From NCBI GenBank assembly GCA_027021085.1, contig JALUVB010000053.1, positions 1-59,390 of the forward strand: DNA of 59,390 nt, in the 5' to 3' direction. The notes under the pieces were generated by a model that worked only from the letters and a program-made list of their open reading frames with translations, was not told where the DNA came from and ran no database searches. Position 1 is the first letter of the stretch, and each line of letters starts with the position of its first letter. The DNA comes from a bacterium (GTDB taxonomy: Bacteria; CAIJMQ01; JAADFP01). The translations under genes and the position numbers were made by a program. Shown here one piece after another: positions 1 through 10,568 of the stretch.

Positions 1-166
1 TAGCCTCAAGGCGAATTTTGCCCCTTAAATTGATTAGTTTTTCCAGACGCTTACGCCTTATGAAGTCATATAGAGCCTTGTTAACTGCTTCGGTCTTCGT
101 CCTGGCCTTGGTCAGCTCAATAACTTTCTTTAAAGCCTCCTCGGATATGTTTAAAGTGGTGCGCAT
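1..166 (-). CDS. VapB/DUF2191-like ribbon-helix-helix antitoxin; its 3' end runs off the window
   Basis: Hand translation of the minus strand from ATG (164-166) gives MRTTLNISEEALKKVIELTKARTKTEAVNKALYDFIRRKRLEKLINLRGKIRLEA... It has the same N-terminal pattern as the VapB-like ORF at 8974-9177. A G6 Shine-Dalgarno-like run lies 3 nt upstream. It is absent from the ORF track because it is open at the window edge. Confidence 0.55.
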   Translation of the reverse strand, partial: MRTTLNISEEALKKVIELTKARTKTEAVNKALYDFIRRKRLEKLINLRGKIRLEA

Positions 167-198
167 TTTCCCCCCTTTTTGCATACAATTCCGATGAT

Positions 199-227
199 AT
201 TATATGATTACAGCAGGCATCTGTCAA
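199..227 (-). promoter_or_regulatory. Consensus sigma70 promoter for the antitoxin gene
   Basis: The minus strand reads TTGACA (222-227), a 17-nt spacer, then TATAAT (199-204). This sits about 33 nt upstream of the ATG at 166. Confidence 0.6.
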
Positions 228-283
228 TTCTACAAGCTGCATCAGGGAAAATCTTCTCGAAATAGGGAGATAGAGCTACACTT

Positions 284-440
284 TTCACTTAACGGCTGGC
301 GGGGGATGGGAAGTCCGAGCGAAGCGAGAATTTGGGCGGAGCGATAGCGAAGTCGGATATGCACCTGTTAAGTGAGTGCGATAGTACCGAGCACCACAAA
401 GGTGGTGCGAAGAGTCGGGGGCAAAGGGCCACTTTAATAG
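284..440 (+). repeat. GC-rich structured element, copy A (attC-like or ncRNA-like)
   Basis: It shares ordered blocks with copy B: TTTCACTTAACGGC, TTTGGGYGRAG, GCGATAG, hairpin+GAAGAGT, CCACTTTAATA. ACTTAAC (287-293) and GTTAAGT (367-373) are exact reverse complements. A hairpin forms between 391-397 and 402-408. It is a GC-rich island in AT-rich surroundings and starts about 20 nt after the stop of the 587-aa ORF. Confidence 0.6.
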
Positions 441-459
441 ATCACATACTCGTTTTGTG

Positions 460-2223
460 TCAGTAATCTAATACCCTATAAAGATCCAAACGAGAAAAAT
501 TTAATTTCGATTTTCCACTTCTTTTCAACTCATTGAGGAGAATGTTTACTATATCTTTGATATCAAATATTTCGATATTAAGGTTAGCATAATGATTTTT
601 TATCTTATCGAAAGATTTTCTAATATATTCTATTTTTTCTATGTTTTTAATAAAATTAATACAGTAAAATATCTTATGAATCCTCTTTTTGCTACATAGT
701 TCTATTTCGTTCCAAATTTTCTTCATTTCATCAGATTCTATCTTTGCGTTTTTTAGGAATATAGCACATTTGCTTTTTATGTGAACATCAATATCCGGTT
801 TATCCCTTTCAAGCGTATCGTTGAGCTTAATATCATCTTTTTTCCTTACCAATTTGATGCACTCTAATAACTCTCTAAAATTTGGAGGGGTCTTATCATC
901 AATTAAACCGCATTCAAAAAATTCCTGACATAACTCATGGATGAAATATTCGGAGAAATTACCCGCAAAAGACGAGGTCATAATTTTTAAAGTATAATCC
1001 TTCTCATCCTGCATTTCATATTTAAAAAGGCTTTCCAAGACTCGTAAAATGTCTGTAATTTGTTTAAATATGTCTCTTTCCCACTCTTGGGACAACGAAT
1101 CCCTTCTTTTAGTCGTCTCTATCTCTAATAAACAAATCTTTGCAAAGATATATAACAAAGTCCATTCCTCAGCGTAATATCTTAATAGGGATTCTGAGAG
1201 AGGCACATTTTCTTTGAAAGCCTTCATCACAAGAAAGGTTTTTATTTTATCCATTAATGACCAAGCTTTTAATATATCTTTATTGGAATAAGCTTCTTTA
1301 TAATACTTTGCAGTTAATTTATCTACTTCCTTCAATGTTACCAATAGTTTTATAGAATCTTCGTTTTGTTTCTCCTCTGGCAAGCTTCTAATGAATTTTT
1401 GAGCACTTTTTAACGATTTATCGGAATACTCTACTAATTCTTCTGTAATTTGATCTATTATTTTTTGAGCTTCTTGTTTTTTCTCATTCGATCTCTCAAA
1501 ATAGACAGATCTAACCAAAGAGTGAAGTTGTTTTTTTCTAAGTTTGTAAAGGGATTCATAGCATAAAGAAATCAGATAGGAATTTCTGGCAGGTATATTC
1601 TCTAAAATATTCAAAATTGATTTTATATGATCCTCTAAGGCTTCTATCTCACTTATATTCAGCTTCAAACTGTCTATTTTTTTCTTGTAATGGTTTTTTA
1701 CAAAAAGGGAAACAAGGATGTCAACAACATTAATGGGTTTCTCTGAACTAATCGACACGATTGATAAATATGTTTCTATAAAACTTATAAATTCACTCTC
1801 AGCAACATCGTAATCTATAAGCTCCCCTTTTTCACTAAGCTTTATCAATGCAACTTCGTACGTTCCCAACATCTTTTTAAAACTGTTACTTGGATACGGC
1901 TGAAGTTTATGTCTATCAAACAGTTTTGAGAGTGCCCTAATAATTAAACTCAATGACTTGGTTGGATCGTTAAGTAGATATTGGAACGACTTACTCCATA
2001 AATAATTGTGTTCTACATGCAGTAAGTTTATTTGGTCGTTTAGTTTTTCATATTTTTTTCTAATTTCCTCAAATTCACAATCTAATTGACGGAAAAGATC
2101 ACTCGATGGTATTTGAATCTTCTCTCGTAATATATACCTATTTATCTTCTGTTTAATACGATTGAATTCTTGCTCAATTTCAATGGGACTTTCTCTAATC
2201 CTGATTTTCATATCATTCATCAC
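460..2223 (-). CDS. Hypothetical 587-aa protein, K/E/I/L-rich and probably all-helical; no family recognised
   Basis: A long uninterrupted ORF in a very AT-rich region, where random stops would be frequent. It is co-oriented with and downstream of the R-M gene. There is no Walker motif or other clear motif. Confidence 0.7.
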   Translation of the reverse strand: MMNDMKIRIRESPIEIEQEFNRIKQKINRYILREKIQIPSSDLFRQLDCEFEEIRKKYEKLNDQINLLHVEHNYLWSKSFQYLLNDPTKSLSLIIRALSKLFDRHKLQPYPSNSFKKMLGTYEVALIKLSEKGELIDYDVAESEFISFIETYLSIVSISSEKPINVVDILVSLFVKNHYKKKIDSLKLNISEIEALEDHIKSILNILENIPARNSYLISLCYESLYKLRKKQLHSLVRSVYFERSNEKKQEAQKIIDQITEELVEYSDKSLKSAQKFIRSLPEEKQNEDSIKLLVTLKEVDKLTAKYYKEAYSNKDILKAWSLMDKIKTFLVMKAFKENVPLSESLLRYYAEEWTLLYIFAKICLLEIETTKRRDSLSQEWERDIFKQITDILRVLESLFKYEMQDEKDYTLKIMTSSFAGNFSEYFIHELCQEFFECGLIDDKTPPNFRELLECIKLVRKKDDIKLNDTLERDKPDIDVHIKSKCAIFLKNAKIESDEMKKIWNEIELCSKKRIHKIFYCINFIKNIEKIEYIRKSFDKIKNHYANLNIEIFDIKDIVNILLNELKRSGKSKLNFSRLDLYRVLDY

Positions 2224-2280
2224 TATTTAATTTCTTTTTCACATTTTTAATAATCCTTATATTTTACTTTGCCCCCGATT

Positions 2281-2425
2281 TCACTTAACGGCCAGCGGGT
2301 ATCTGAAATCGCCGAAGGCGTTTTGGGTGAGAGCTGAAAGCCCGAACCAGATACCCGCTTGTTAGCAGACCTGAAGGGCGAGCCTGCGATAGCAGGTGAA
2401 GAGTTCCGCACGCCGCCACTTAATA
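2281..2425 (+). repeat. GC-rich structured element, copy B
   Basis: Same block order as copy A. An 11-bp stem pairs GCGGGTATCTG (2295-2305) with CAGATACCCGC (2348-2358). A hairpin pairs CCTGC (2383-2387) with GCAGG (2392-2396), followed by GAAGAGT (2398-2404). It begins directly after the R-M stop codon at 2428-2430. The 62-aa track ORF at 2247-2435 is judged non-coding. Confidence 0.6.
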
Positions 2426-2427
2426 TA

Positions 2428-4758
2428 CTACTCACTATTATCTCCTCTCCTTAAAGGCAATTTTTTAATAAATTCTCTCATGTATTCCCAGTCCGGTTTT
2501 ACATTTTCATCAACAGGTAATTTTATTTTAGATTTTTCCATTCTTGCTTTAGTCCATTTTAAACCGTAATTGAATCTGTATCTTTCTTTTTCAATTATTG
2601 TTATTAAAAATAATGCTTTATAGACATCAAGATCGAAAGTCGGATACAACACATTTACATCATCTGAAGCCCAGAAAGGTCTAGACTGATAAAATGCTAT
2701 TCCCACAGAGCCATCATAATTAACAGTTATTACATTTTTCTCAAATATTGGATCACGTGCTATTTTTGCAGTTAATCCATTATTATACATGCTGGAGCCA
2801 ATAAATGGAGTATTCCCAGGATTCATGTCAAGTTTTATCAATCTTTTTCCTTTTTTGATTTCAAATAAACCACCGTCACCTCCTAATTTAAAATACTTCC
2901 AATTTTCAGTATTGAGCGGTAGGCATTTTTCATTTGAAAATTCTTTTAAGATATCGAGATTACCCTCTTTAATTTCAAAAGAAATGTAATCTAGAACTTT
3001 ATGCCTAAAATCATTACATGTTATTTTTGAATAATCTGTTTCCATGTATGGTTCAGCGCACCATATATCCTCAGCATTTACTGTTTTTAAAACACTCATC
3101 CCGGGTTTTTCTTCTCTATTTAGATACAGATTCAGAAATGTATCTTTTGTATGATTCCATCTGTTATGGTAATCTATTCTTCCTTTATTCTTTATTTTTA
3201 TAAACCCATCATCTTTAAGATATCCAAACCAAACTTTTTTATTCGGTGGATGGGGCTTATGGGCTGTTAGTACCAGTATCGCAGTAACAACCCCCACTGG
3301 GTAAAACAAATCATCTGGCATGCTTATTACTGCCTCTAAAGTATGCTTTTCTAATATTTTTTCTTTGAAATCTAGATATTCTCTTTTATCTAATACACAC
3401 CTCATTGGTACAATTGCTACACATTTCCCCCCATGTTCAAGCATATCTAAATTATTTAATACAAATTCAAATTCATTAATGTCATCTTTCTCTATTTTAT
3501 ATGGTGGGTTTAATAAACCTATATTTGGTTTAAATTTTTCTTTAATTTCATTAAAGATATTATCGAAACAACTGCCATGATATATGTTCGTTTTCCCATC
3601 CCCATGAACTATCATGTTTGTAATAGCAAGTGCATAAATATGGTCTTGATATTCTATACCTATAATCTGCTTCTCTTTTATGTGTTTTATTTTTTTACTA
3701 CTTTTTCTAGATTTTTCTATCATCTTTTTCATAGCACTGATAAGAAACCCACCTGTACCACAACAATTGTCCAAAACAACACTGTCTTTTGTAATTTCTG
3801 CCAAATCACAAAACAATTCAGTAATATGGGATGGAGTTAGGATTATACCTAATCTTTTATCACTATTTGCATATCTAAGAAACTCTATGTAAAATCTACC
3901 TAGGGCATCGTAATAATGATAGGTTTTTATAAATTTATTTAATTTATCATCAATATCATCTATAAGTTTTATCACAAACTCTTTATCTGTTGTTAGTGTT
4001 GTATGTGTTTTCATGAATGAAAACGCAATCTCCAAATTCTCAATCTTGTTAGAGGGTATATTTGATTTTTTCAATTCTCGAATAATCGTAGCAACGAGAA
4101 CATCTATAATCTCTTTAGCGGTATCATACTTTTTATAGCTTTCATGAAATGCCCTATTCCGTAAAGCAATCAAAATTCCACTAACTACCAGACTTCGTTG
4201 AGCTTCGGGTATTTTTTTAATATGAAGTGTTGTGTTCAGTTCTCCTGCAAAATCTAATAATTTTGATAAATCTTGACGGAATTTCATATCAGAATATAAA
4301 TAGGCATTAGAATAATCTTCAAAAGACAGAAGTTCATCTCCTAAAATCTTACTGGGGGTATTGGTGTCCTTAAGCCATAAATAATGGGTTATTTTAAGAT
4401 TTTCTTTCTTTTCACCGCTAACACCGATAGCCAAAACATCGTATTCTTTTGATAGATATGATGCATATAATAAAGCTCCATCAACTGCATACTCATCGTA
4501 CTTATCTCTAGATTCACTTTCGTGCTTTCTAATATCTGCTTTACACTCAATGACTATTAAAAAATCACTTCTCTTTTTTGATGTAACTATAAAATCTGGG
4601 GAACCCTTCCCTGTGCTTCTTTTAGATGCGTTTTTAAGTAATTTTTTTATTCTTGGATTGTCACTTGTTTGCTCCTCTACTATTATGTCATCATTTTCAT
4701 AGTATCCCAACTTTCTAAATTCATCCCTAACAATTTTTTCAGTTTTTCTTTCATTCAT
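2428..4758 (-). CDS. Single-chain type IIG-like restriction-modification enzyme: PD-(D/E)xK nuclease + N6-adenine methyltransferase + HsdS-like TRD
   Basis: The N-terminus has SPDFIV...LIVIECK (a PD..ExK motif). Methyltransferase motif I is DNCCGTGGF and motif IV is LLNPPYK. The C-terminal WKYFKLGG..LFEIKKGKR...TPFIGSSMYNNG resembles an HsdS target-recognition domain. A GGGAGG Shine-Dalgarno lies at 4766-4771. Confidence 0.85.
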   Translation of the reverse strand: MNERKTEKIVRDEFRKLGYYENDDIIVEEQTSDNPRIKKLLKNASKRSTGKGSPDFIVTSKKRSDFLIVIECKADIRKHESESRDKYDEYAVDGALLYASYLSKEYDVLAIGVSGEKKENLKITHYLWLKDTNTPSKILGDELLSFEDYSNAYLYSDMKFRQDLSKLLDFAGELNTTLHIKKIPEAQRSLVVSGILIALRNRAFHESYKKYDTAKEIIDVLVATIIRELKKSNIPSNKIENLEIAFSFMKTHTTLTTDKEFVIKLIDDIDDKLNKFIKTYHYYDALGRFYIEFLRYANSDKRLGIILTPSHITELFCDLAEITKDSVVLDNCCGTGGFLISAMKKMIEKSRKSSKKIKHIKEKQIIGIEYQDHIYALAITNMIVHGDGKTNIYHGSCFDNIFNEIKEKFKPNIGLLNPPYKIEKDDINEFEFVLNNLDMLEHGGKCVAIVPMRCVLDKREYLDFKEKILEKHTLEAVISMPDDLFYPVGVVTAILVLTAHKPHPPNKKVWFGYLKDDGFIKIKNKGRIDYHNRWNHTKDTFLNLYLNREEKPGMSVLKTVNAEDIWCAEPYMETDYSKITCNDFRHKVLDYISFEIKEGNLDILKEFSNEKCLPLNTENWKYFKLGGDGGLFEIKKGKRLIKLDMNPGNTPFIGSSMYNNGLTAKIARDPIFEKNVITVNYDGSVGIAFYQSRPFWASDDVNVLYPTFDLDVYKALFLITIIEKERYRFNYGLKWTKARMEKSKIKLPVDENVKPDWEYMREFIKKLPLRRGDNSE

Positions 4759-4787
4759 ATTTATTCCTCCCTAAGGCGGCGTGCAAA

Positions 4788-4880
4788 ATTTCACATAACT
4801 CGTTCATATACGCATAATTGCGTATATCCTTCCAAATCTGGGATATATGTGAAGTATTTCGTGTATACCCGCCTTTACAT
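4788..4880 (+). repeat. Shorter, degenerate copy C of the structured element
   Basis: TTTCACATAAC (compare TTTCACTTAAC), an internal 9-4-9 palindrome, GAAGTAT (4851-4857, compare GAAGAGT), a GC-rich arm, and TTTACAT (compare ACTTAAT). Similarity is patchy. Confidence 0.35.
4806..4827. promoter_or_regulatory. Perfect 9-4-9 palindrome ATATACGCA-TAAT-TGCGTATAT upstream of the R-M gene
   Basis: Exact inverted arms read from the sequence, 48-69 nt upstream of the R-M ATG (4758). It may be an operator or the stem of element copy C. Confidence 0.4.
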
Positions 4881-5005
4881 GAACTCATAGGTTTTCCTCT
4901 TTTGAAACCTGCCTGTCCGGACGGGTATTTAGCGGGCAAGTTCTGGGGAATTGTTTCAGGAAAATGTTTCATTCCAGTAGTAATATAGCAAATAAAAGCG
5001 ATAAG

Positions 5006-6115
5006 TCAAAGCGCATTCTTTAAAATCGTTTCTGTCTCATCCACCATTCTTGAAACATCGAAGTTCTCTTCTATCCATCTTTTGCCCTTTTCCCCCATTT
5101 CTCTCGCTTCTTCCGGGTGATTTAGCAGGTAGGTTATGGCTTTTGCTAAAGCCTGTGAATTTTTGGCAGGCACCAGAACTCCTGTCTCTTTATTCCTTAC
5201 TACTTCGGGAATACCGCCTACATTCGTAGCTACCACGGGAATACCCACGCCGGAAGCCTCCATAACCGAACGGGGAAGGCCTTCGGATAAGGAAGGATGG
5301 ACAAAAAGGTCAAGAATTTGCAGGATATTTCCCACCTCGGCTACTTTCCCGGTAAAGATGAAATTTCCCCTCACCCTTAACTCATTTGCCAATTCTTCCA
5401 GTTCCCTCCGCAGATTTCCCTCCCCCACCATTACAAAGCGTGTCTCCGGGAAAGCTTTCAGCACCTCCACGGAGGCCTCGATTAAATACCTATATCCTTT
5501 CAAAGCTATCAAATGCCCTACAGAGCCGATAACTTTTGCCCCTTCCGGGATACCCAGCTCTTTTTTCACTACGTCTCTTTCAGAGGAGACTTTCAGCCTG
5601 CTTAAATCCACACCGTTTAGAATAGTTACTACTCTCTCCGGGTTGATTCTCAACTCTTGCAGGATATGCCCTCGCAAAGCCTCAGAAAGGGTAATTATTT
5701 TATGGGGTATTTTTTTCAATATTCGGTTATATTTCCACAAGGGAAAATTCATTTTCCTGTTTCCCAGCTTATCCTTGTTTATATAGGCATGAATGGTACT
5801 TACAATAAGGGACGTTCCCGCCTTTTTTGCCGCAATAAGCCCGGGGACATCTCCGTCCCTATTATGGGTATGCACCACATCAAAACGCTCCTCCCTGATT
5901 AAATCAACAAGTTCCCTTATAGCTTTTCTTTTTTCTCTCAACTCCAGAGTATAAACCTCAAGCCCATTCTTCTTATAAGCTTCCGCCAGGGAACCGGGCC
6001 TGCATATAACCTTTACTTTATGGCCTCTATTTTGCAAGCCAAGGCTCAGTATCCGGGTATGCTCCTGGGAGCCTCCCCCGGTGTCTTTGGAAGAAATTAT
6101 TTGCAGGATTTTCAT
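5006..6115 (-). CDS. Glycosyltransferase family 4 (GT-B fold)
   Basis: C-terminal Glycos_transf_1 signature ...PSLSEGLPRSVMEASGVGIPVVATNVGGIPEVV... Confidence 0.85.
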   Translation of the reverse strand: MKILQIISSKDTGGGSQEHTRILSLGLQNRGHKVKVICRPGSLAEAYKKNGLEVYTLELREKRKAIRELVDLIREERFDVVHTHNRDGDVPGLIAAKKAGTSLIVSTIHAYINKDKLGNRKMNFPLWKYNRILKKIPHKIITLSEALRGHILQELRINPERVVTILNGVDLSRLKVSSERDVVKKELGIPEGAKVIGSVGHLIALKGYRYLIEASVEVLKAFPETRFVMVGEGNLRRELEELANELRVRGNFIFTGKVAEVGNILQILDLFVHPSLSEGLPRSVMEASGVGIPVVATNVGGIPEVVRNKETGVLVPAKNSQALAKAITYLLNHPEEAREMGEKGKRWIEENFDVSRMVDETETILKNAL

Positions 6116-8585: not shown

Positions 8586-8981
8586 CTATACCAACCTCAA
8601 TTGAGAATGCTGGGATATTACTTCAAAGTGTGCATCTTTATGTAAGACAGCCCAATCATTTTCTATGGCAATGGTAGCTATCAAAATATCTGTAGATGGT
8701 ATCTTTATCCCTTTTCTATATAAAGAGAATGCGAGACGAGAGGCTTTCAACCAATAAAATTCTTCTGTGGGCAAGTAATGCAGTCCTTCAAATTTTCTGA
8801 GGAGGGATTGGTACTCTTTCTCACTTTTTGTTCCCTGAAGCAATTCAAGCACAATAATACCCGTTATAGCAACCCTGTTTTTATCCAGGTATGTTATCAA
8901 TTTATTTTTGATTTCTTTGCACCCTCGCCTTGAGAAAGCGCATATCCAAGCAGAAGTATCTACAATTACTAACTCATTCAT
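8586..8981 (-). CDS. vapC: PIN-domain toxin VapC
   Basis: 131 aa. The N-terminus is LVIVDTSAWI with the conserved Asp, followed by later acidic residues (ELLQG, STDILIA). It overlaps the upstream antitoxin gene by 8 nt. Confidence 0.85.
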   Translation of the reverse strand: MNELVIVDTSAWICAFSRRGCKEIKNKLITYLDKNRVAITGIIVLELLQGTKSEKEYQSLLRKFEGLHYLPTEEFYWLKASRLAFSLYRKGIKIPSTDILIATIAIENDWAVLHKDAHFEVISQHSQLRLV

Positions 8982-9177
8982 TATTTCTTATTTTCTCAAG
9001 CTCTTTTAAGGTGAGAGGAAAGTCATAGCTCCCAATCATATTTTTTAACTCTTCTCTCCTTTTCATCTTTATATACTCTTCCATTGCTTTTGTAATGGCA
9101 CCCTTCTTTGTCTTCTCTTTACTTATCTTCAATACTTCTTTCATTAAGTTCTCATCTATTTCAATCAAAGTCCGCAT
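8974..9177 (-). CDS. vapB: VapB-type (DUF2191-like) antitoxin
   Basis: 67 aa, beginning MRTLIEIDENLMKEVLK... It lies immediately upstream of, and overlaps, the PIN toxin gene. Confidence 0.8.
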   Translation of the reverse strand: MRTLIEIDENLMKEVLKISKEKTKKGAITKAMEEYIKMKRREELKNMIGSYDFPLTLKELEKIRNNE

Positions 9178-9278: not shown

Positions 9279-10568
9279 CTATCGCCTTTTCCGCATTTTC
9301 CTGAATTCTCTTTTTATCCTTACCAGGTCTCTTATGCTTAGTACATGCTCAAGTAAAGGCGTGTAAGGAAGGGCCCCCAATTTGAGATAAGCGCGCCTGT
9401 AGAACTTTTTTGTCCAGGAGAACCCGCGGGGCAGCAAATTTTCTCTTTTAGCCCGCTCTTCCAGAAGTGTGCCGGGAAAAATTGTCACTCCATAATTTAT
9501 AGCTGCATGGTGACCCCTTTTTCTCACCTGGGTAACAAAGGAGAGCGTTTCCTGTGCATCTTTTTCTGTTTCACCGTAATTTCCCAGCATCATGTAAACT
9601 TCCATGGGCAGGGAAAATTTCTCTCCCCATTTCAATGCTTCCTCTATCTGCTGGTTGGTAATCTTCTTATTCATCAGCTCCCTTACCCGGGGGACAATGC
9701 TCTCCACCCCGAATTTTACCTCAATACAGCCGGTTTCCTTCAGCTTCCTGGTAAACTCCCTGGTCAATAGGTGCGCGCGGGATTTAGCCACGTAGGAAAT
9801 ATTCCTATCCTTTAATCCAGCCAGAATTTTTTCCGCATACTCCTCTTTCAAGCCAAAAGTATCATCCTCTATAACTACGGCATTATAGCCAAACTTCTCC
9901 CTGAGTAAATCAATCTCTTCCAGGACCATTTCCGGTGGTTTAAATTTCACCCGGGGATACATAGCGCCTGCCGCACAGAAGGTACAGCGAAAGGGGCAGC
10001 CCTTGCTGGTAATTATGTTTATTCCCAACGCTCCGTTTCTCAACTTATATCTATATTTTTTTAAATCAAGCACTTCGTACAGAGGAAGGGGTAATGCAGC
10101 CAGGTCCAGGCGAGGGGGAAAACCCGTATCTACTATCTCTGAGCCATCCCGGAAGCAAACTCCGGGGATTTTTGCCATATCTTCCCCGGCCAGAATCTTT
10201 GAAAACGGCTCTTCTCCCTCCCCTTTGATAACAATGTCAACGAAAGGATTGGATACCAGCACCTCTTCAGCAGCAAAGGTGGGATGCGGCCCTCCCACCA
10301 CTATTTTAACTTCAGGCAGTAACCGCTTTATCTCCCTGCTAACCTTAAAAGCAACAAATCTTAAATCAGTATGCATGCTTATCCCCACCACATCCGGGGC
10401 AAAGGTAAATAGCTCTTTTCTGAAATCCATTTCCTCCACGGACATGTCAAACAACCTCACTTCATGTCCTTCCCTGCGCAGGTAGGAGGCAATGTACAAG
10501 AGCCCGATAGGTATCTCGCTTCTCTGGGGCTTCGTATGCTCGGTAGCTATCAAAAACACCTTTTTCAT
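9279..10568 (-). CDS. B12-binding-domain radical SAM protein
   Basis: The N-terminus is a cobalamin-binding-like Rossmann segment. The CxxxCxxC motif is CPFRCTFC. Confidence 0.8.
   Translation of the reverse strand: MKKVFLIATEHTKPQRSEIPIGLLYIASYLRREGHEVRLFDMSVEEMDFRKELFTFAPDVVGISMHTDLRFVAFKVSREIKRLLPEVKIVVGGPHPTFAAEEVLVSNPFVDIVIKGEGEEPFSKILAGEDMAKIPGVCFRDGSEIVDTGFPPRLDLAALPLPLYEVLDLKKYRYKLRNGALGINIITSKGCPFRCTFCAAGAMYPRVKFKPPEMVLEEIDLLREKFGYNAVVIEDDTFGLKEEYAEKILAGLKDRNISYVAKSRAHLLTREFTRKLKETGCIEVKFGVESIVPRVRELMNKKITNQQIEEALKWGEKFSLPMEVYMMLGNYGETEKDAQETLSFVTQVRKRGHHAAINYGVTIFPGTLLEERAKRENLLPRGFSWTKKFYRRAYLKLGALPYTPLLEHVLSIRDLVRIKREFRKMRKRR

What the first reader, a model, noticed from the sequence alone, without database searches (positions are those of the whole stretch)
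460..4758. AT-rich two-gene module: a single-chain R-M-S enzyme followed by a 587-aa orphan protein (candidate defence pair)
The ORF at 2428-4758 encodes one 776-aa polypeptide with three parts:
- a PD-(D/E)xK motif (SPDFIV...IVIECK);
- gamma-class N6-adenine methyltransferase motifs (DNCCGTGGF and LLNPPYK);
- an HsdS-like target-recognition domain.

Co-oriented and separated from it only by structured element B is a 587-aa Lys/Glu/Ile/Leu-rich protein in which I recognise no family. It carries only weak features: one Rx4H (LRKKQLH), and a C-terminal stretch SEYFIHELCQEFFE...KPDIDVH...IFLKNAK that could be a degenerate nuclease-like core.

By eye, both genes are about 30% GC, against roughly 45-50% in the adjacent glycan operon. 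This was not computed. It suggests they were acquired horizontally. R-M genes anchor defence islands, so a large orphan partner could be a new effector, sensor or modulator.
Basis: partly seen in the sequence, partly recalled or inferred. Interest (0 to 1): 0.7.

Follow-up and report, generated by a model that had tools for sequence, protein, structure and literature searches.

The report
Two independent integron gene cassettes
The two AT-rich genes are not a working pair: each is a separate mobile integron cassette ending in its own attC recombination site, one encoding an ordinary single-chain restriction-modification enzyme and the other a rare, uncharacterised protein that may be a nuclease.

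Summary
Two co-oriented minus-strand ORFs (776 aa and 587 aa) have about 30% GC in a host of about 45% GC. The 776-aa protein is a typical type IIG restriction-modification enzyme. The 587-aa protein matches no curated family.

The "defence pair" reading is not supported. "Element B" (2283-2367) and a sister element after the orphan (287-373) are integron attC sites. Both have the R''-L''-loop-L'-R' layout. Stem covariation beats all controls, and a covariance model finds further copies between other ORFs elsewhere. DNA similarity to other loci stops at the G|TT core sites. The R-M cassette (4798-2289), with its attC, recurs alone in the archaeon Aciduliprofundum boonei. The orphan cassette (2288-293) recurs without the R-M gene in about 27 other loci. 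A VapB cassette follows. No integron integrase was found, so this is a CALIN. The contig looks bacterial (Caldisericota-like).

The orphan family is small (82 clusters) and mostly archaeal. Its neighbours are often defence genes such as GmrSD, SIR2, OLD and HerA. Confident models show a helical N-terminal part and an alpha/beta C-terminal domain with a PD-(D/E)xK-like topology and motif. No fold or profile match is significant, so its function remains a hypothesis.

The parts
4793..4799 (-). Core site GTTATGT, the 5' boundary of the R-M cassette (recombination point between G4799 and T4798).
   Evidence: DNA similarity to the A. boonei locus L037 starts at window 4800. A. boonei has GTTAGCA at the same place.
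2289..4798 (-). R-M gene cassette (2510 bp): short leader, ORF and attC-B.
   Evidence: Window 4800->2286 is 74.9% identical in DNA to A. boonei L037:5956-8480, and the similarity ends at both core sites.
2428..4758 (-). Type IIG restriction-modification enzyme, 776 aa. It has an N-terminal PD...ExK nuclease motif (P54-D55...E71-C72-K73), a gamma-class N6-adenine methyltransferase domain (283-555) and one HsdS-like target-recognition domain (618-769).
   Evidence: more than 6500 homologues of about 770-790 aa.
   Evidence: Model R1 hit at 2279-2372, 69.4 bits, E=5.6e-12. DNA-parameter fold. Also found by the architecture-only scan. A homologous site follows the A. boonei gene, with compensatory stem changes.
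293..2288 (-). Orphan gene cassette (1996 bp): leader beginning TTAAGT, ORF and attC-A.
   Evidence: DNA similarity to L015 spans window 2293->320, similarity to L017/L018 starts at 2291, and similarity to L027 runs to 310. The cassette's first bases plus the preceding G (GTTAAGT) are the exact reverse complement of its own R'' (ACTTAAC).
460..2223 (-). Orphan protein, 587 aa (583-586 aa from the likely starts at 2211 or 2220). The N-terminal ~400 residues are all helical. The C-terminal domain has an alpha-beta-beta-beta-alpha-beta topology.
   Evidence: pLDDT 85.2, pTM 0.77; 82 clusters.
463..1011 (-). C-terminal domain of the orphan (residues 405-587), carrying the invariant residues E425, P476-D477-x-D479, K491 and E506. 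It is a putative PD-(D/E)xK-like nuclease core.
   Evidence: pLDDT 86, pTM 0.82. The fold search gave only weak hits.
287..373 (-). attC-A: R'' ACTTAAC (373->367) and R' GTTAAGT (293->287). The L stem is weak in this copy.
   Evidence: Model R1 hit at 283-378, 72.2 bits, E=1.4e-12. The site is conserved together with the ORF in L012, L015 and L027.
1..292 (-). Start of a third cassette: a promoter-like site (227->199) and the VapB antitoxin gene (ATG at 166), cut off by the contig end.
   Evidence: L012 shows VapB_antitoxin PF09957 followed by a 92-aa ORF cut by the end of the contig. The promoter-like site matches the consensus at 12 of 12 positions.

Best explanation
The region is the start of an integron-type cassette array that lacks a nearby integrase (a CALIN). 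It sits next to a glycosyltransferase operon on a contig that looks bacterial (Caldisericota-like).

Each gene is a separate cassette made of a short leader, one ORF and a 3' attC site. The cassettes are joined at G|TT core sites:
- R-M cassette, 4798->2289.
- Orphan cassette, 2288->293.
- A VapB(C) toxin-antitoxin cassette from 292 onward.

Shown here: the attC architecture, covariation in its stems, cassette boundaries that coincide with the ends of similarity to other genomes, and independent occurrence of each cassette elsewhere.

Inferred: an integron integrase, acting in trans or in an ancestor, inserted the cassettes by recombination of the folded attC strand. The two ORFs may be read through from an upstream promoter, but each works on its own.

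The R-M cassette encodes a self-contained type IIG enzyme that both methylates and cuts at a site read by its single target-recognition domain (inferred from family membership).

The orphan is most likely a stand-alone effector. In that reading, a helical-repeat N-terminal domain recognises a ligand or target and controls a C-terminal restriction-endonuclease-like domain. Its catalytic residues would be D477 and K491, helped by E425 and E506, and it would act against invading DNA. This part is hypothesis: I give about 55% to the nuclease fold and about 40-45% to a defence role.
For: attC identity:
- Nine sites aligned. With the R''/R' plus L''/L' structure, 72.9% of cells are paired against 28-38% when partners are slid. 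7 of 12 L pairs change on both sides. 0 of 500 shuffles reach the covariation score.
- With 14 distinct sites, 5 of them not used to build the model, 12 of 18 pairs change on both sides, and the score is 0.359 against 0.05-0.14 for slid partners.
- Model R1 finds exactly two strong sites in the window, 1996 bp apart and co-oriented with the ORFs. It also finds new sites between other ORFs in L014, L020, L027 and L037.
- An architecture-only scan recovers the same sites.

Cassette boundaries:
- Similarity between window and L015, L017, L018 and L027 covers only the orphan cassette.
- Similarity between window and A. boonei covers only the R-M cassette, window 4800->2286.
- Circle-junction test: the upstream core equals the reverse complement of the cassette's own R'' at 7 of 7 positions in 4 of 6 cassettes.

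Independence of the two genes:
- No R-M relative lies beside any other orphan (contexts).
- No orphan lies beside R-M relatives.

Literature:
- A CALIN is defined as at least 2 attC sites less than 4 kb apart. TA and R-M genes are among the commonest annotated cassette functions (PMC9668308).
- Cassettes of unknown function often encode phage defence (bioRxiv 10.1101/2024.07.02.601719).
- Small CALINs and single-attC insertions can arise by cassette insertion into genomes (bioRxiv 10.1101/2022.09.11.507474).

Orphan:
- Confident structure models.
- Invariant E425, D477, D479, K491 and E506 at the positions expected for an alpha-beta-beta-beta-alpha nuclease core.
- Weak structural hits fall on Rpb5-N, Can2, NucS, Mus81 and an arenavirus endonuclease, which I recall as restriction-endonuclease-like folds.
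- Neighbours include GmrSD, SIR2_2, OLD-family, DUF87/HerA, AbiEii, a PLD nuclease, SLFN/AlbA_2 and PIN.
Against: - No integron integrase was found. Ten candidate ORFs in the window are other things, and the only recombinase seen in a related locus is XerA-like.
- The sites were recognised with my own model, not with the standard attC models (IntegronFinder, HattCI), which were not available.
- The spacers are asymmetric (1-2 nt after R'', 4-6 nt before R'), and clear extrahelical bases are not evident in attC-B.
- attC-A in the window has a weak L stem.
- The 5' core of the R-M cassette (GTTATGT) matches its own R'' at only 4 of 7 positions.
- Single-sequence folding z-scores of the whole spacers are unremarkable (-1.3 and -0.6).
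- For the orphan, no fold, profile or sequence match is significant: best Foldseek E is 0.085 for the domain, hhalign probabilities are below 2%, and there are no family hits.
- The residue two before K491 is an invariant Phe, not Asp or Glu.
- The defence-rich neighbourhood was not tested against a background rate.
- In several archaeal loci the orphan sits among housekeeping genes.
Confidence: 0.85

Rival explanations
1. One reading: the type IIG enzyme and the orphan form one functional two-gene defence system, with the orphan acting as effector, sensor or modulator of the R-M enzyme.
For: The two genes are adjacent, co-oriented and similar in GC content. No intrinsic terminator is predicted between them. 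Both are identical in a second assembly, L012.
Against: They co-occur in 0 of about 27 other orphan loci and in 0 of 3 R-M contexts. Similarity to other genomes breaks at the core site between the genes. The spacer is a recombination site. The R-M enzyme's family stands alone in thousands of genomes.
Confidence: 0.05
2. The GC-rich elements are not attC sites but some other repeat (a REP- or MITE-like element, or a transcription terminator), and the genes sit in an ordinary genomic island.
For: No integrase is nearby. The standard attC model was not run. The spacer geometry is atypical. An extra conserved hairpin lies 5' of R''.
Against: The AAC and GTT cores are invariant. Stem covariation is strong. 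Every site lies 3' of an ORF and in the same orientation. Boundaries fall exactly at G|TT in two different cassettes. The circle-junction complementarity is 7 of 7 in 4 of 6 cassettes, which a terminator or a MITE would not produce.
Confidence: 0.07
3. The orphan is not a nuclease or a defence protein. It is a cassette of unknown function with a non-catalytic role, such as a scaffold, a regulator or a mobile-element maintenance protein, and the D/K/E pattern is structural.
For: There is no significant match to any nuclease family or fold. The canonical acidic residue before the Lys is missing. Several homologues lie among housekeeping genes. The whole-protein fold hits are generic helical repeats.
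Against: Five charged residues are invariant at the positions expected of a PD-(D/E)xK variant across proteins down to 21% identity. The beta-meander topology is modelled confidently. Nuclease and defence genes recur as neighbours.
Confidence: 0.4
4. The cassette array belongs to another organism, for example an archaeon, and was joined to the Caldisericota-like contig by misassembly at the contig end.
For: The array lies at the very end of the contig. The independent assembly L012 stops at window 4946, before the glycosyltransferase gene. The closest named relatives of both cassette proteins are archaeal. There is a 15-point GC step at about position 5000.
Against: Arrays commonly end contigs because of their repeats, and low-GC cassettes in higher-GC hosts are usual. 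The leader of the R-M gene carries a Shine-Dalgarno-like GGGAGG, and the VapB cassette has a perfect bacterial sigma-70 consensus.
Confidence: 0.1

Closest known systems
Integron cassette arrays without integrase (CALINs), including those reported in Archaea (Ghaly et al. 2022, PMC9668308)
   Same: Co-oriented single-ORF cassettes, each followed by an attC of about 85 nt with R''(..AAC)-L''-loop-L'-R'(GTT..). There are two attC sites less than 4 kb apart. The cargo of R-M and TA genes is typical. The attC sites within the array resemble each other. Relatives of both cassettes occur across the two domains.
   Different: No IntI or attI was identified. The cassettes are large (2.0 and 2.5 kb). 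The R-to-L spacers are asymmetric. Each attC is preceded by an extra conserved GC-rich hairpin. Detection was by a custom model, not by the standard attC tools.
Bacteriophage resistance integron cassettes (BRiCs; Kieffer et al., bioRxiv 10.1101/2024.07.02.601719)
   Same: A cassette of unknown function, carried in an array next to known defence cassettes. The family is also found outside integrons.
   Different: BRiCs were shown experimentally to protect, and they come from mobile integrons of Proteobacteria. Here no phenotype is known, the host lineage is Caldisericota-like or archaeal, and there is no sequence similarity to any PADLOC model.
Single attC sites lacking integrase (SALINs), formed by cassette insertion at genomic attG sites (Loot et al., bioRxiv 10.1101/2022.09.11.507474)
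   Same: In A. boonei the R-M cassette sits alone between housekeeping genes, flanked by GTT cores. The window's array abuts a housekeeping operon with no integrase.
   Different: SALINs were described in bacterial genomes, whereas this one is in a cultured archaeon. The insertion mechanism was not tested here.
Type IIG (R-M-S fused) restriction-modification enzymes with an HsdS-like target-recognition domain (PADLOC REase_MTase_IIG PDLC03608)
   Same: Full-length profile match (E=2.6e-161), a PD...ExK motif, gamma-class N6A methyltransferase motifs, and one Methylase_S domain.
   Different: Nothing notable. It is one of more than 6500 similar proteins. Its recognition sequence is unknown.
Single-polypeptide sensor-plus-PD-(D/E)xK nucleases of defence islands, for example Shedu SduA, Can2/Card1 effector domains and type IV enzymes such as GmrSD (comparison from general knowledge)
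   Same: Proposed logic: an N-terminal recognition or regulatory domain fused to a C-terminal nuclease, encoded by one gene and found among defence genes.
   Different: No detectable homology to any of them. The N-terminal domain is a ~400-residue helical repeat with no NTPase or CARF domain. The catalytic motif is non-canonical (F-L-K, with a candidate acid at E506).

Membership tests
Integron cassette array / CALIN | At least two attC sites less than 4 kb apart | tested here: met
   Two R1 hits at 283-378 and 2279-2372, 1996 bp apart, with E about 1e-12. The criterion is taken from PMC9668308.
Integron cassette array / CALIN | attC architecture: imperfect inverted repeats R''(RYYYAAC)/R'(GTTRRRY) and L''/L' around a variable loop, total length 57-141 nt | tested here: met
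   The sites are 85 and 87 nt long. AAC and GTT are invariant. 73-75% of cells are paired, against 27-41% when partners are slid. 12 of 18 pairs covary.
Integron cassette array / CALIN | Cassettes are discrete mobile units bounded at G|TT | tested here: met
   Similarity to other genomes ends at the cores for both cassettes. The circle-junction complementarity is 7 of 7 in 4 of 6 cassettes.
Integron cassette array / CALIN | attC lies 3' of the ORF and in the same orientation | tested here: met
   All 14 significant hits are on the ORF strand and lie between ORFs.
Integron cassette array / CALIN | Extrahelical bases and an unpaired central spacer on the folded bottom strand | tested here: inconclusive
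   A spacer asymmetry is present (1-2 nt against 4-6 nt). Bulges or mismatches occur in some sites (L012A, L027). attC-B has a perfect 12-bp stem.
Integron cassette array / CALIN | Recognition by the standard attC model (IntegronFinder, HattCI) | not testable with these tools
   Those models were not available. Rfam has no attC family and gave no hit.
Complete integron | An integron integrase (IntI) and attI adjacent to the first cassette | tested here: not met
   The gene upstream of the array is a glycosyltransferase. Ten other window ORFs are not recombinases. Not every ORF in the window was scanned.
Type IIG restriction-modification enzyme | One polypeptide with a PD-(D/E)xK nuclease motif, gamma-class N6A methyltransferase motifs (motif I before motif IV) and a target-recognition domain | tested here: met
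   P54-D55...E71-C72-K73, DNCCGTGGF and NPPYK are present. N6_Mtase E=7.9e-33 and Methylase_S E=2.3e-20. PDLC03608 E=2.6e-161 over the full length.
Type IIG restriction-modification enzyme | Cleavage and methylation activity at a defined site | not testable with these tools
   This needs methylome data or enzyme assays.
PD-(D/E)xK nuclease superfamily (orphan C-terminal domain) | alpha-beta-beta-beta-alpha-beta core topology | tested here: met
   AF2 domain model with pLDDT 86. Elements are H2-34, E61-65, E74-78, E82-87, H93-108 and E113-118.
PD-(D/E)xK nuclease superfamily (orphan C-terminal domain) | Catalytic D...(D/E)-x-K motif on strands 2 and 3 | tested here: inconclusive
   P476-D477 sits at the start of strand 2 and K491 at the end of strand 3, and both are invariant. 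The residue two before the Lys is an invariant Phe. E506 on the next helix could substitute for the missing acid.
PD-(D/E)xK nuclease superfamily (orphan C-terminal domain) | Significant sequence, profile or structure match to a known member | tested here: not met
   No nuclease family among the Pfam matches of the domain, all weak (best E 0.0038). No hit in NCBIfam, PADLOC or PHROGs, searched with the whole protein. The PDB profile search is negative. Best Foldseek E is 0.085 with TM 0.3-0.42. hhalign probabilities are below 2%.
Known anti-phage defence systems (PADLOC-DB v2) | Match of the orphan to any model | tested here: not met
   Only a LeoA hit at E=9e-4, in 1 of 27 family members. I judge it spurious.

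The most novel reading that the evidence does not exclude
The 587-aa family is a new single-gene anti-phage or anti-plasmid system. A helical-repeat sensor is fused to a non-canonical PD-(D/E)xK nuclease whose second acidic residue comes from the following helix. The system moves between Archaea and Bacteria as an integron cassette.
Probability: 0.3. Interest if true: 0.65.

Novelty: new member of a known kind. Interest (0 to 1): 0.4.

Why it matters
The result corrects a tempting guilt-by-association call. Adjacency inside an integron array does not imply a shared function, and the "structured element" between the genes is the recombination site that makes them independent.

Two leads remain:
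- The orphan is a compact, rare and well-modelled protein family with no annotation. It recurs beside GmrSD, SIR2, OLD, HerA/AbiE and R-M genes, and it travels as a cassette. That makes it a concrete candidate for defence-gene screens of the kind now being run on integron cassettes.
- An entire R-M cassette, attC included, is shared at about 75% DNA identity between a Caldisericota-like bacterial contig and the cultured archaeon Aciduliprofundum boonei. This gives a tractable example of cross-domain cassette exchange in an organism that can be grown.

Tried and rejected
- Folding the whole spacers as RNA gave unremarkable z-scores of -1.3 and -0.6. The signal appeared only once the sites were delimited and compared across loci.
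- Rfam gave nothing in 1-5300, at either gathering or permissive thresholds.
- A viral-contig scan for the orphan found no relatives.
- PDB sequence and profile searches with the whole orphan and with its C-terminal domain gave only chance hits, to GCN4 chimeras and PUF4.
- The whole-protein Foldseek search returned generic helical-repeat proteins with E of 0.007 or worse. I read this only as "alpha-solenoid".
- The C-terminal-domain Foldseek search gave no significant hit.
- hhalign of the domain profile against single Hjc, NucS-like and VRR_NUC sequences from fetched loci gave probabilities below 2%.
- The PADLOC LeoA hit (E=9e-4) was rejected because only 1 of 27 family members shows it.
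- I first assumed an archaeal host, from the orphan's relatives. I dropped that after finding BamD, HolA and MiaA in the window.
- I considered a TOPRIM reading of the E...DxD pattern. I rejected it because the three strands form a consecutive antiparallel meander and the Glu lies in a helix.
- I tested whether the tyrosine recombinase in L044 is an integron integrase. It is not: 51 bits against a cut-off of 265.
- The weak plus-strand R1 hit at window 4788-4884 (E=7) was treated as noise.
- Promoter-like sites are not enriched over shuffles (22 against 24.6), so I draw no expression conclusions beyond the single perfect match upstream of VapB.

Full report
OBSERVATION

The two ORFs are real. 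They lie on the minus strand at 4758->2428 (776 aa) and 2223->460 (587 aa). GC content is 0.30-0.365 across 1-5000 and 0.40-0.50 elsewhere in the window.

It matches Pfam N6_Mtase (E=7.9e-33) and Methylase_S (E=2.3e-20). It also matches the PADLOC type IIG model PDLC03608 over its full length (E=2.6e-161). In the PDB it resembles type I HsdM subunits. It is one of more than 6500 proteins of about 770-790 aa with the same architecture, found in both Bacteria and Archaea. It is an ordinary type IIG enzyme.

The 587-aa protein has no significant match in Pfam, NCBIfam, PADLOC, PHROGs or PDB sequences.

THE SPACERS ARE attC SITES

On the coding strand, the 204-nt spacer between the genes and the stretch after the orphan's stop codon are both GC-rich (0.53-0.55). 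Both end in ...GCCGTTAAGTGAAA.

Each spacer contains an RYYYAAC-like box: TGCTAAC at 2367->2361, and ACTTAAC at 373->367. About 85 nt downstream lies GTTAAGT, which fits GTTRRRY. This is the R''...R' layout of an integron attC.

The closest orphan loci carry homologous elements. Folded with DNA parameters, several give an R-box helix, a short asymmetric spacer, a 10-12 bp L-box helix and a variable loop.

An alignment of nine such sites shows invariant TAAC and GTT cores. For the proposed structure:
- 72.9% of cells are paired, against 28-38% when the partners are slid.
- 7 of 12 L-box pairs change on both sides.
- 0 of 500 shuffles reach the covariation score.

A covariance model built from these sites (R1) finds exactly two strong sites in the window, 283-378 and 2279-2372, both on the minus strand (72 and 69 bits). 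It also finds sites that were not used to build it: L014:4344-4432, L014:6202-6287, L027:1607-1699, L020:3137-3221 and L037:8400-8487. All lie on the ORF strand and between ORFs.

On the 14 distinct significant sites, 12 of 18 pairs change on both sides. The covariation score is 0.359, against 0.05-0.14 for slid partners. That alignment was fitted to the model, which favours the structure. An architecture-only scan (AAC, stem, GTT) independently recovers the same sites.

CASSETTE BOUNDARIES

- DNA similarity between the window and L015 spans window 2293->320. Similarity to L017 and L018 starts at 2291. Similarity to L027 runs to 310.
- The shared unit therefore begins at the GTTAAGT core of element B (G at 2289), includes the orphan ORF and ends within attC-A. 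It excludes the R-M gene.
- Similarity to the R-M locus of Aciduliprofundum boonei T469 (L037; 75% protein identity) spans window 4800->2286. That runs from an upstream core, GTTATGT (G at 4799), to the same core of element B.
- In A. boonei the attC has R'' TGCTAAC and R' GTTAGCA, which are perfect complements. The cassette is flanked by GTTAGCA on both sides. Its L stem differs from the window's by compensatory changes (GGGTATCTG/CAGATACCC against GGGTATGCG/CGCATACCC).

A test specific to integrons follows from how cassettes circularise. The G plus the first six bases of a cassette should be the reverse complement of that cassette's own R''. This holds at 7 of 7 positions for four cassettes: the window's orphan cassette, the A. 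boonei R-M cassette, the L014 GmrSD cassette and a small L027 cassette. It holds at 4 of 7 for the other two.

The map on the minus strand is therefore:
- R-M cassette, 4798->2289.
- Orphan cassette, 2288->293.
- A third cassette from 292, encoding VapB.

These features meet the published working definition of a CALIN, which is at least two attC sites less than 4 kb apart. TA and R-M genes are among the commonest annotated cassette functions (PMC9668308).

NO PAIRING BETWEEN THE TWO GENES

The orphan has 52 homologues in the word-indexed search. An exhaustive profile search finds 82 clusters at 50% identity among 1.84 billion proteins.

About 27 other distinct loci were examined. None contains this R-M gene or any detectable relative of it (tblastn; annotated contexts). 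After duplicate loci are removed, the only neighbour shared between distinct loci is a small protein of about 165 aa upstream in one sub-clade.

R-M relatives in three contexts stand alone between mostly housekeeping genes, with no orphan nearby.

HOST AND DISTRIBUTION

The window encodes BamD/YfiO, DNA polymerase III delta and MiaA. MiaA is 86% identical to a Caldiserica bacterium protein. The contig is therefore bacterial.

The orphan's genome-assigned relatives are archaeal: Bathyarchaeia, Heimdallarchaeota, Thermoproteota and Archaeoglobus. Several metagenomic loci carry archaeal marker genes such as LSM, proteasome and Orc1/Cdc6. The closest named R-M relative is also archaeal.

This fits the cross-domain cassette traffic described by Ghaly et al. 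The direction of transfer is unknown. Misassembly at the contig end is not excluded, because the independent assembly L012 stops at window 4946.

No integron integrase was found. The upstream neighbour of the array is a glycosyltransferase, and ten other window ORFs are unrelated. A recombinase in L044 is XerA-like. Small integrase-less arrays, and single-cassette insertions like the one in A. boonei, have been attributed to cassette insertion at genomic sites (bioRxiv 10.1101/2022.09.11.507474).

THE ORPHAN

Structure prediction with 27 homologues gives pLDDT 85.2 and pTM 0.77. Residues 13-400 are all helical. They are followed by an alpha/beta domain.

Modelled alone, the C-terminal domain reaches pLDDT 86 and pTM 0.82. 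Its order of elements is helix, helix, three consecutive strands, helix, strand, helix, strand, helix.

The invariant residues of the family map as follows:
- E425 lies on the first helix.
- P476-D477 lies at the start of strand 2.
- D479 lies on strand 2.
- K491 lies at the end of strand 3.
- E506 lies on the following helix.

This is the topology and residue placement of a PD-(D/E)xK nuclease. The usual acidic residue two positions before the Lys is replaced by an invariant Phe. An acid on the next helix might substitute for it, an arrangement I recall from Cfr10I and NgoMIV (from memory, not tested here).

The evidence stops there:
- The whole-protein Foldseek search returns only generic helical repeats (E of 0.007 or worse).
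- The domain search has no significant hit (best E=0.085). The weak hits do recur on folds I recall as restriction-endonuclease-like: Rpb5-N, Can2, NucS, Mus81 and an arenavirus endonuclease, with TM 0.3-0.42.
- Profile comparisons with single nuclease sequences are negative.

Neighbours of the homologues are often defence genes:
- GmrSD in L014 (itself an attC-bounded cassette) and in L017.
- SIR2_2 and PIN in L020.
- DUF87/HerA and AbiEii in L016/L043.
- A 975-aa PLD-family protein in L030.
- An OLD-family ATPase-TOPRIM in L033.
- SLFN/AlbA_2 in L003.
- A cluster of nucleases in L001.

Other homologues sit among housekeeping genes. No background rate was computed. Cassettes of unknown function have been shown to encode phage defence in mobile integrons (bioRxiv 10.1101/2024.07.02.601719).

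My working model is a stand-alone sensor-nuclease effector. I give about 55% to the fold and about 40-45% to a defence role.

VERDICT

The sequence observation is correct, and so is the inference of horizontal origin. The "two-gene module" is not. These are neighbouring, independently mobile integron cassettes. The R-M enzyme is ordinary. "Element B" is an attC site.

What remains of interest is the orphan family as a candidate cassette-borne defence gene, and the R-M cassette shared with a cultured archaeon. As a whole, the finding is a new member of a known kind.

Noticed in passing
L037:5956-8487 (Aciduliprofundum boonei T469, DS990529.1): A cultured archaeon carries the same R-M cassette, with a homologous attC (R1 54 bits), as a lone insertion between a pyridine-nucleotide oxidoreductase gene and an ArsR gene. 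It is flanked on both sides by GTTAGCA, so it is a single-attC insertion without an integrase. Archaeal integrons were previously reported only from MAGs (PMC9668308).
   Followed up: partly
window 122-355 compared with L012: The independent assembly L012 is identical to the window over 4.6 kb (window 4946->356). It then differs at 29 positions, all within 355->122, which covers attC-A from its L'' box onward and the VapB cassette. This is a sharp mosaic breakpoint inside the attC. It could reflect strain-level recombination or an assembly path switch at the repeat.
   Followed up: partly
window 199-227 (-): A perfect 12 of 12 sigma-70 consensus (TTGACA, 17 nt, TATAAT) lies just upstream of the VapB start (ATG at 166). 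The toxin-antitoxin cassette appears to bring its own promoter.
   Followed up: no
window 2383-2396 (-) and 391-408 (-): Each attC is preceded, about 15-25 nt 5' of R'', by a GC-rich hairpin: CCTGC-TATC-GCAGG in one and GCACCAC-CTTT-GTGGTGC in the other. L015 and L027 have GCCAAC-TTC-GTTGGC at the same place, which is a compensatory change. A. boonei conserves the first hairpin. The function is unknown and there is no U-tract.
   Followed up: partly
window 4806-4827 (-): The palindrome ATATACGCAATTATGCGTATAT lies 6 nt upstream of the R-M cassette's 5' core. A. boonei has a different palindrome (GATTATGCG-AATTA-CGCATAATC) at the equivalent position. No R'' box is evident. It could be a minimal or remnant recombination site.
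   Followed up: partly
L014:4433-6287 and L027:1339-1699: Other attC-bounded cassettes lie next to orphan homologues: a 575-aa GmrSD type IV restriction enzyme in L014, and a cassette of about 360 nt followed by a PIN-domain gene in L027. In both, the R'' box is complementary to the cassette's 5' end.
   Followed up: partly
L044:10571-10656 and L044:10681-11862: An attC-like site of a different sequence family (13-bp stem, ATATAAC...GTTTAAT) lies 25 nt upstream of a XerA-like tyrosine recombinase. They sit in an archaeal Orc1/Cdc6-bearing element that also carries an orphan homologue, a DUF87/HerA gene and AbiEii. The recombinase is not an integron integrase by NCBIfam (51 bits against a cut-off of 265).
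   Followed up: partly
L022:1158-2917 and L033:2942-4695: The orphan homologues in these loci align in two or three separate reading frames. This suggests frameshifted pseudogenes or sequencing errors.
   Followed up: no
window 8586-9177 (-): A second small gene pair sits inside the glycan operon region: a 131-aa protein that looks like a PIN/VapC toxin by eye, overlapping a 67-aa antitoxin-like ORF. It was not scanned against family libraries.
   Followed up: no
L041:1-16330: An orphan homologue sits within a run of 16 co-oriented ORFs, including a NucS_C-like protein. Only one site of the R1 family is detected there (9854-9942). If this is an array, its other attC sites belong to sequence families that my model cannot see.
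   Followed up: partly
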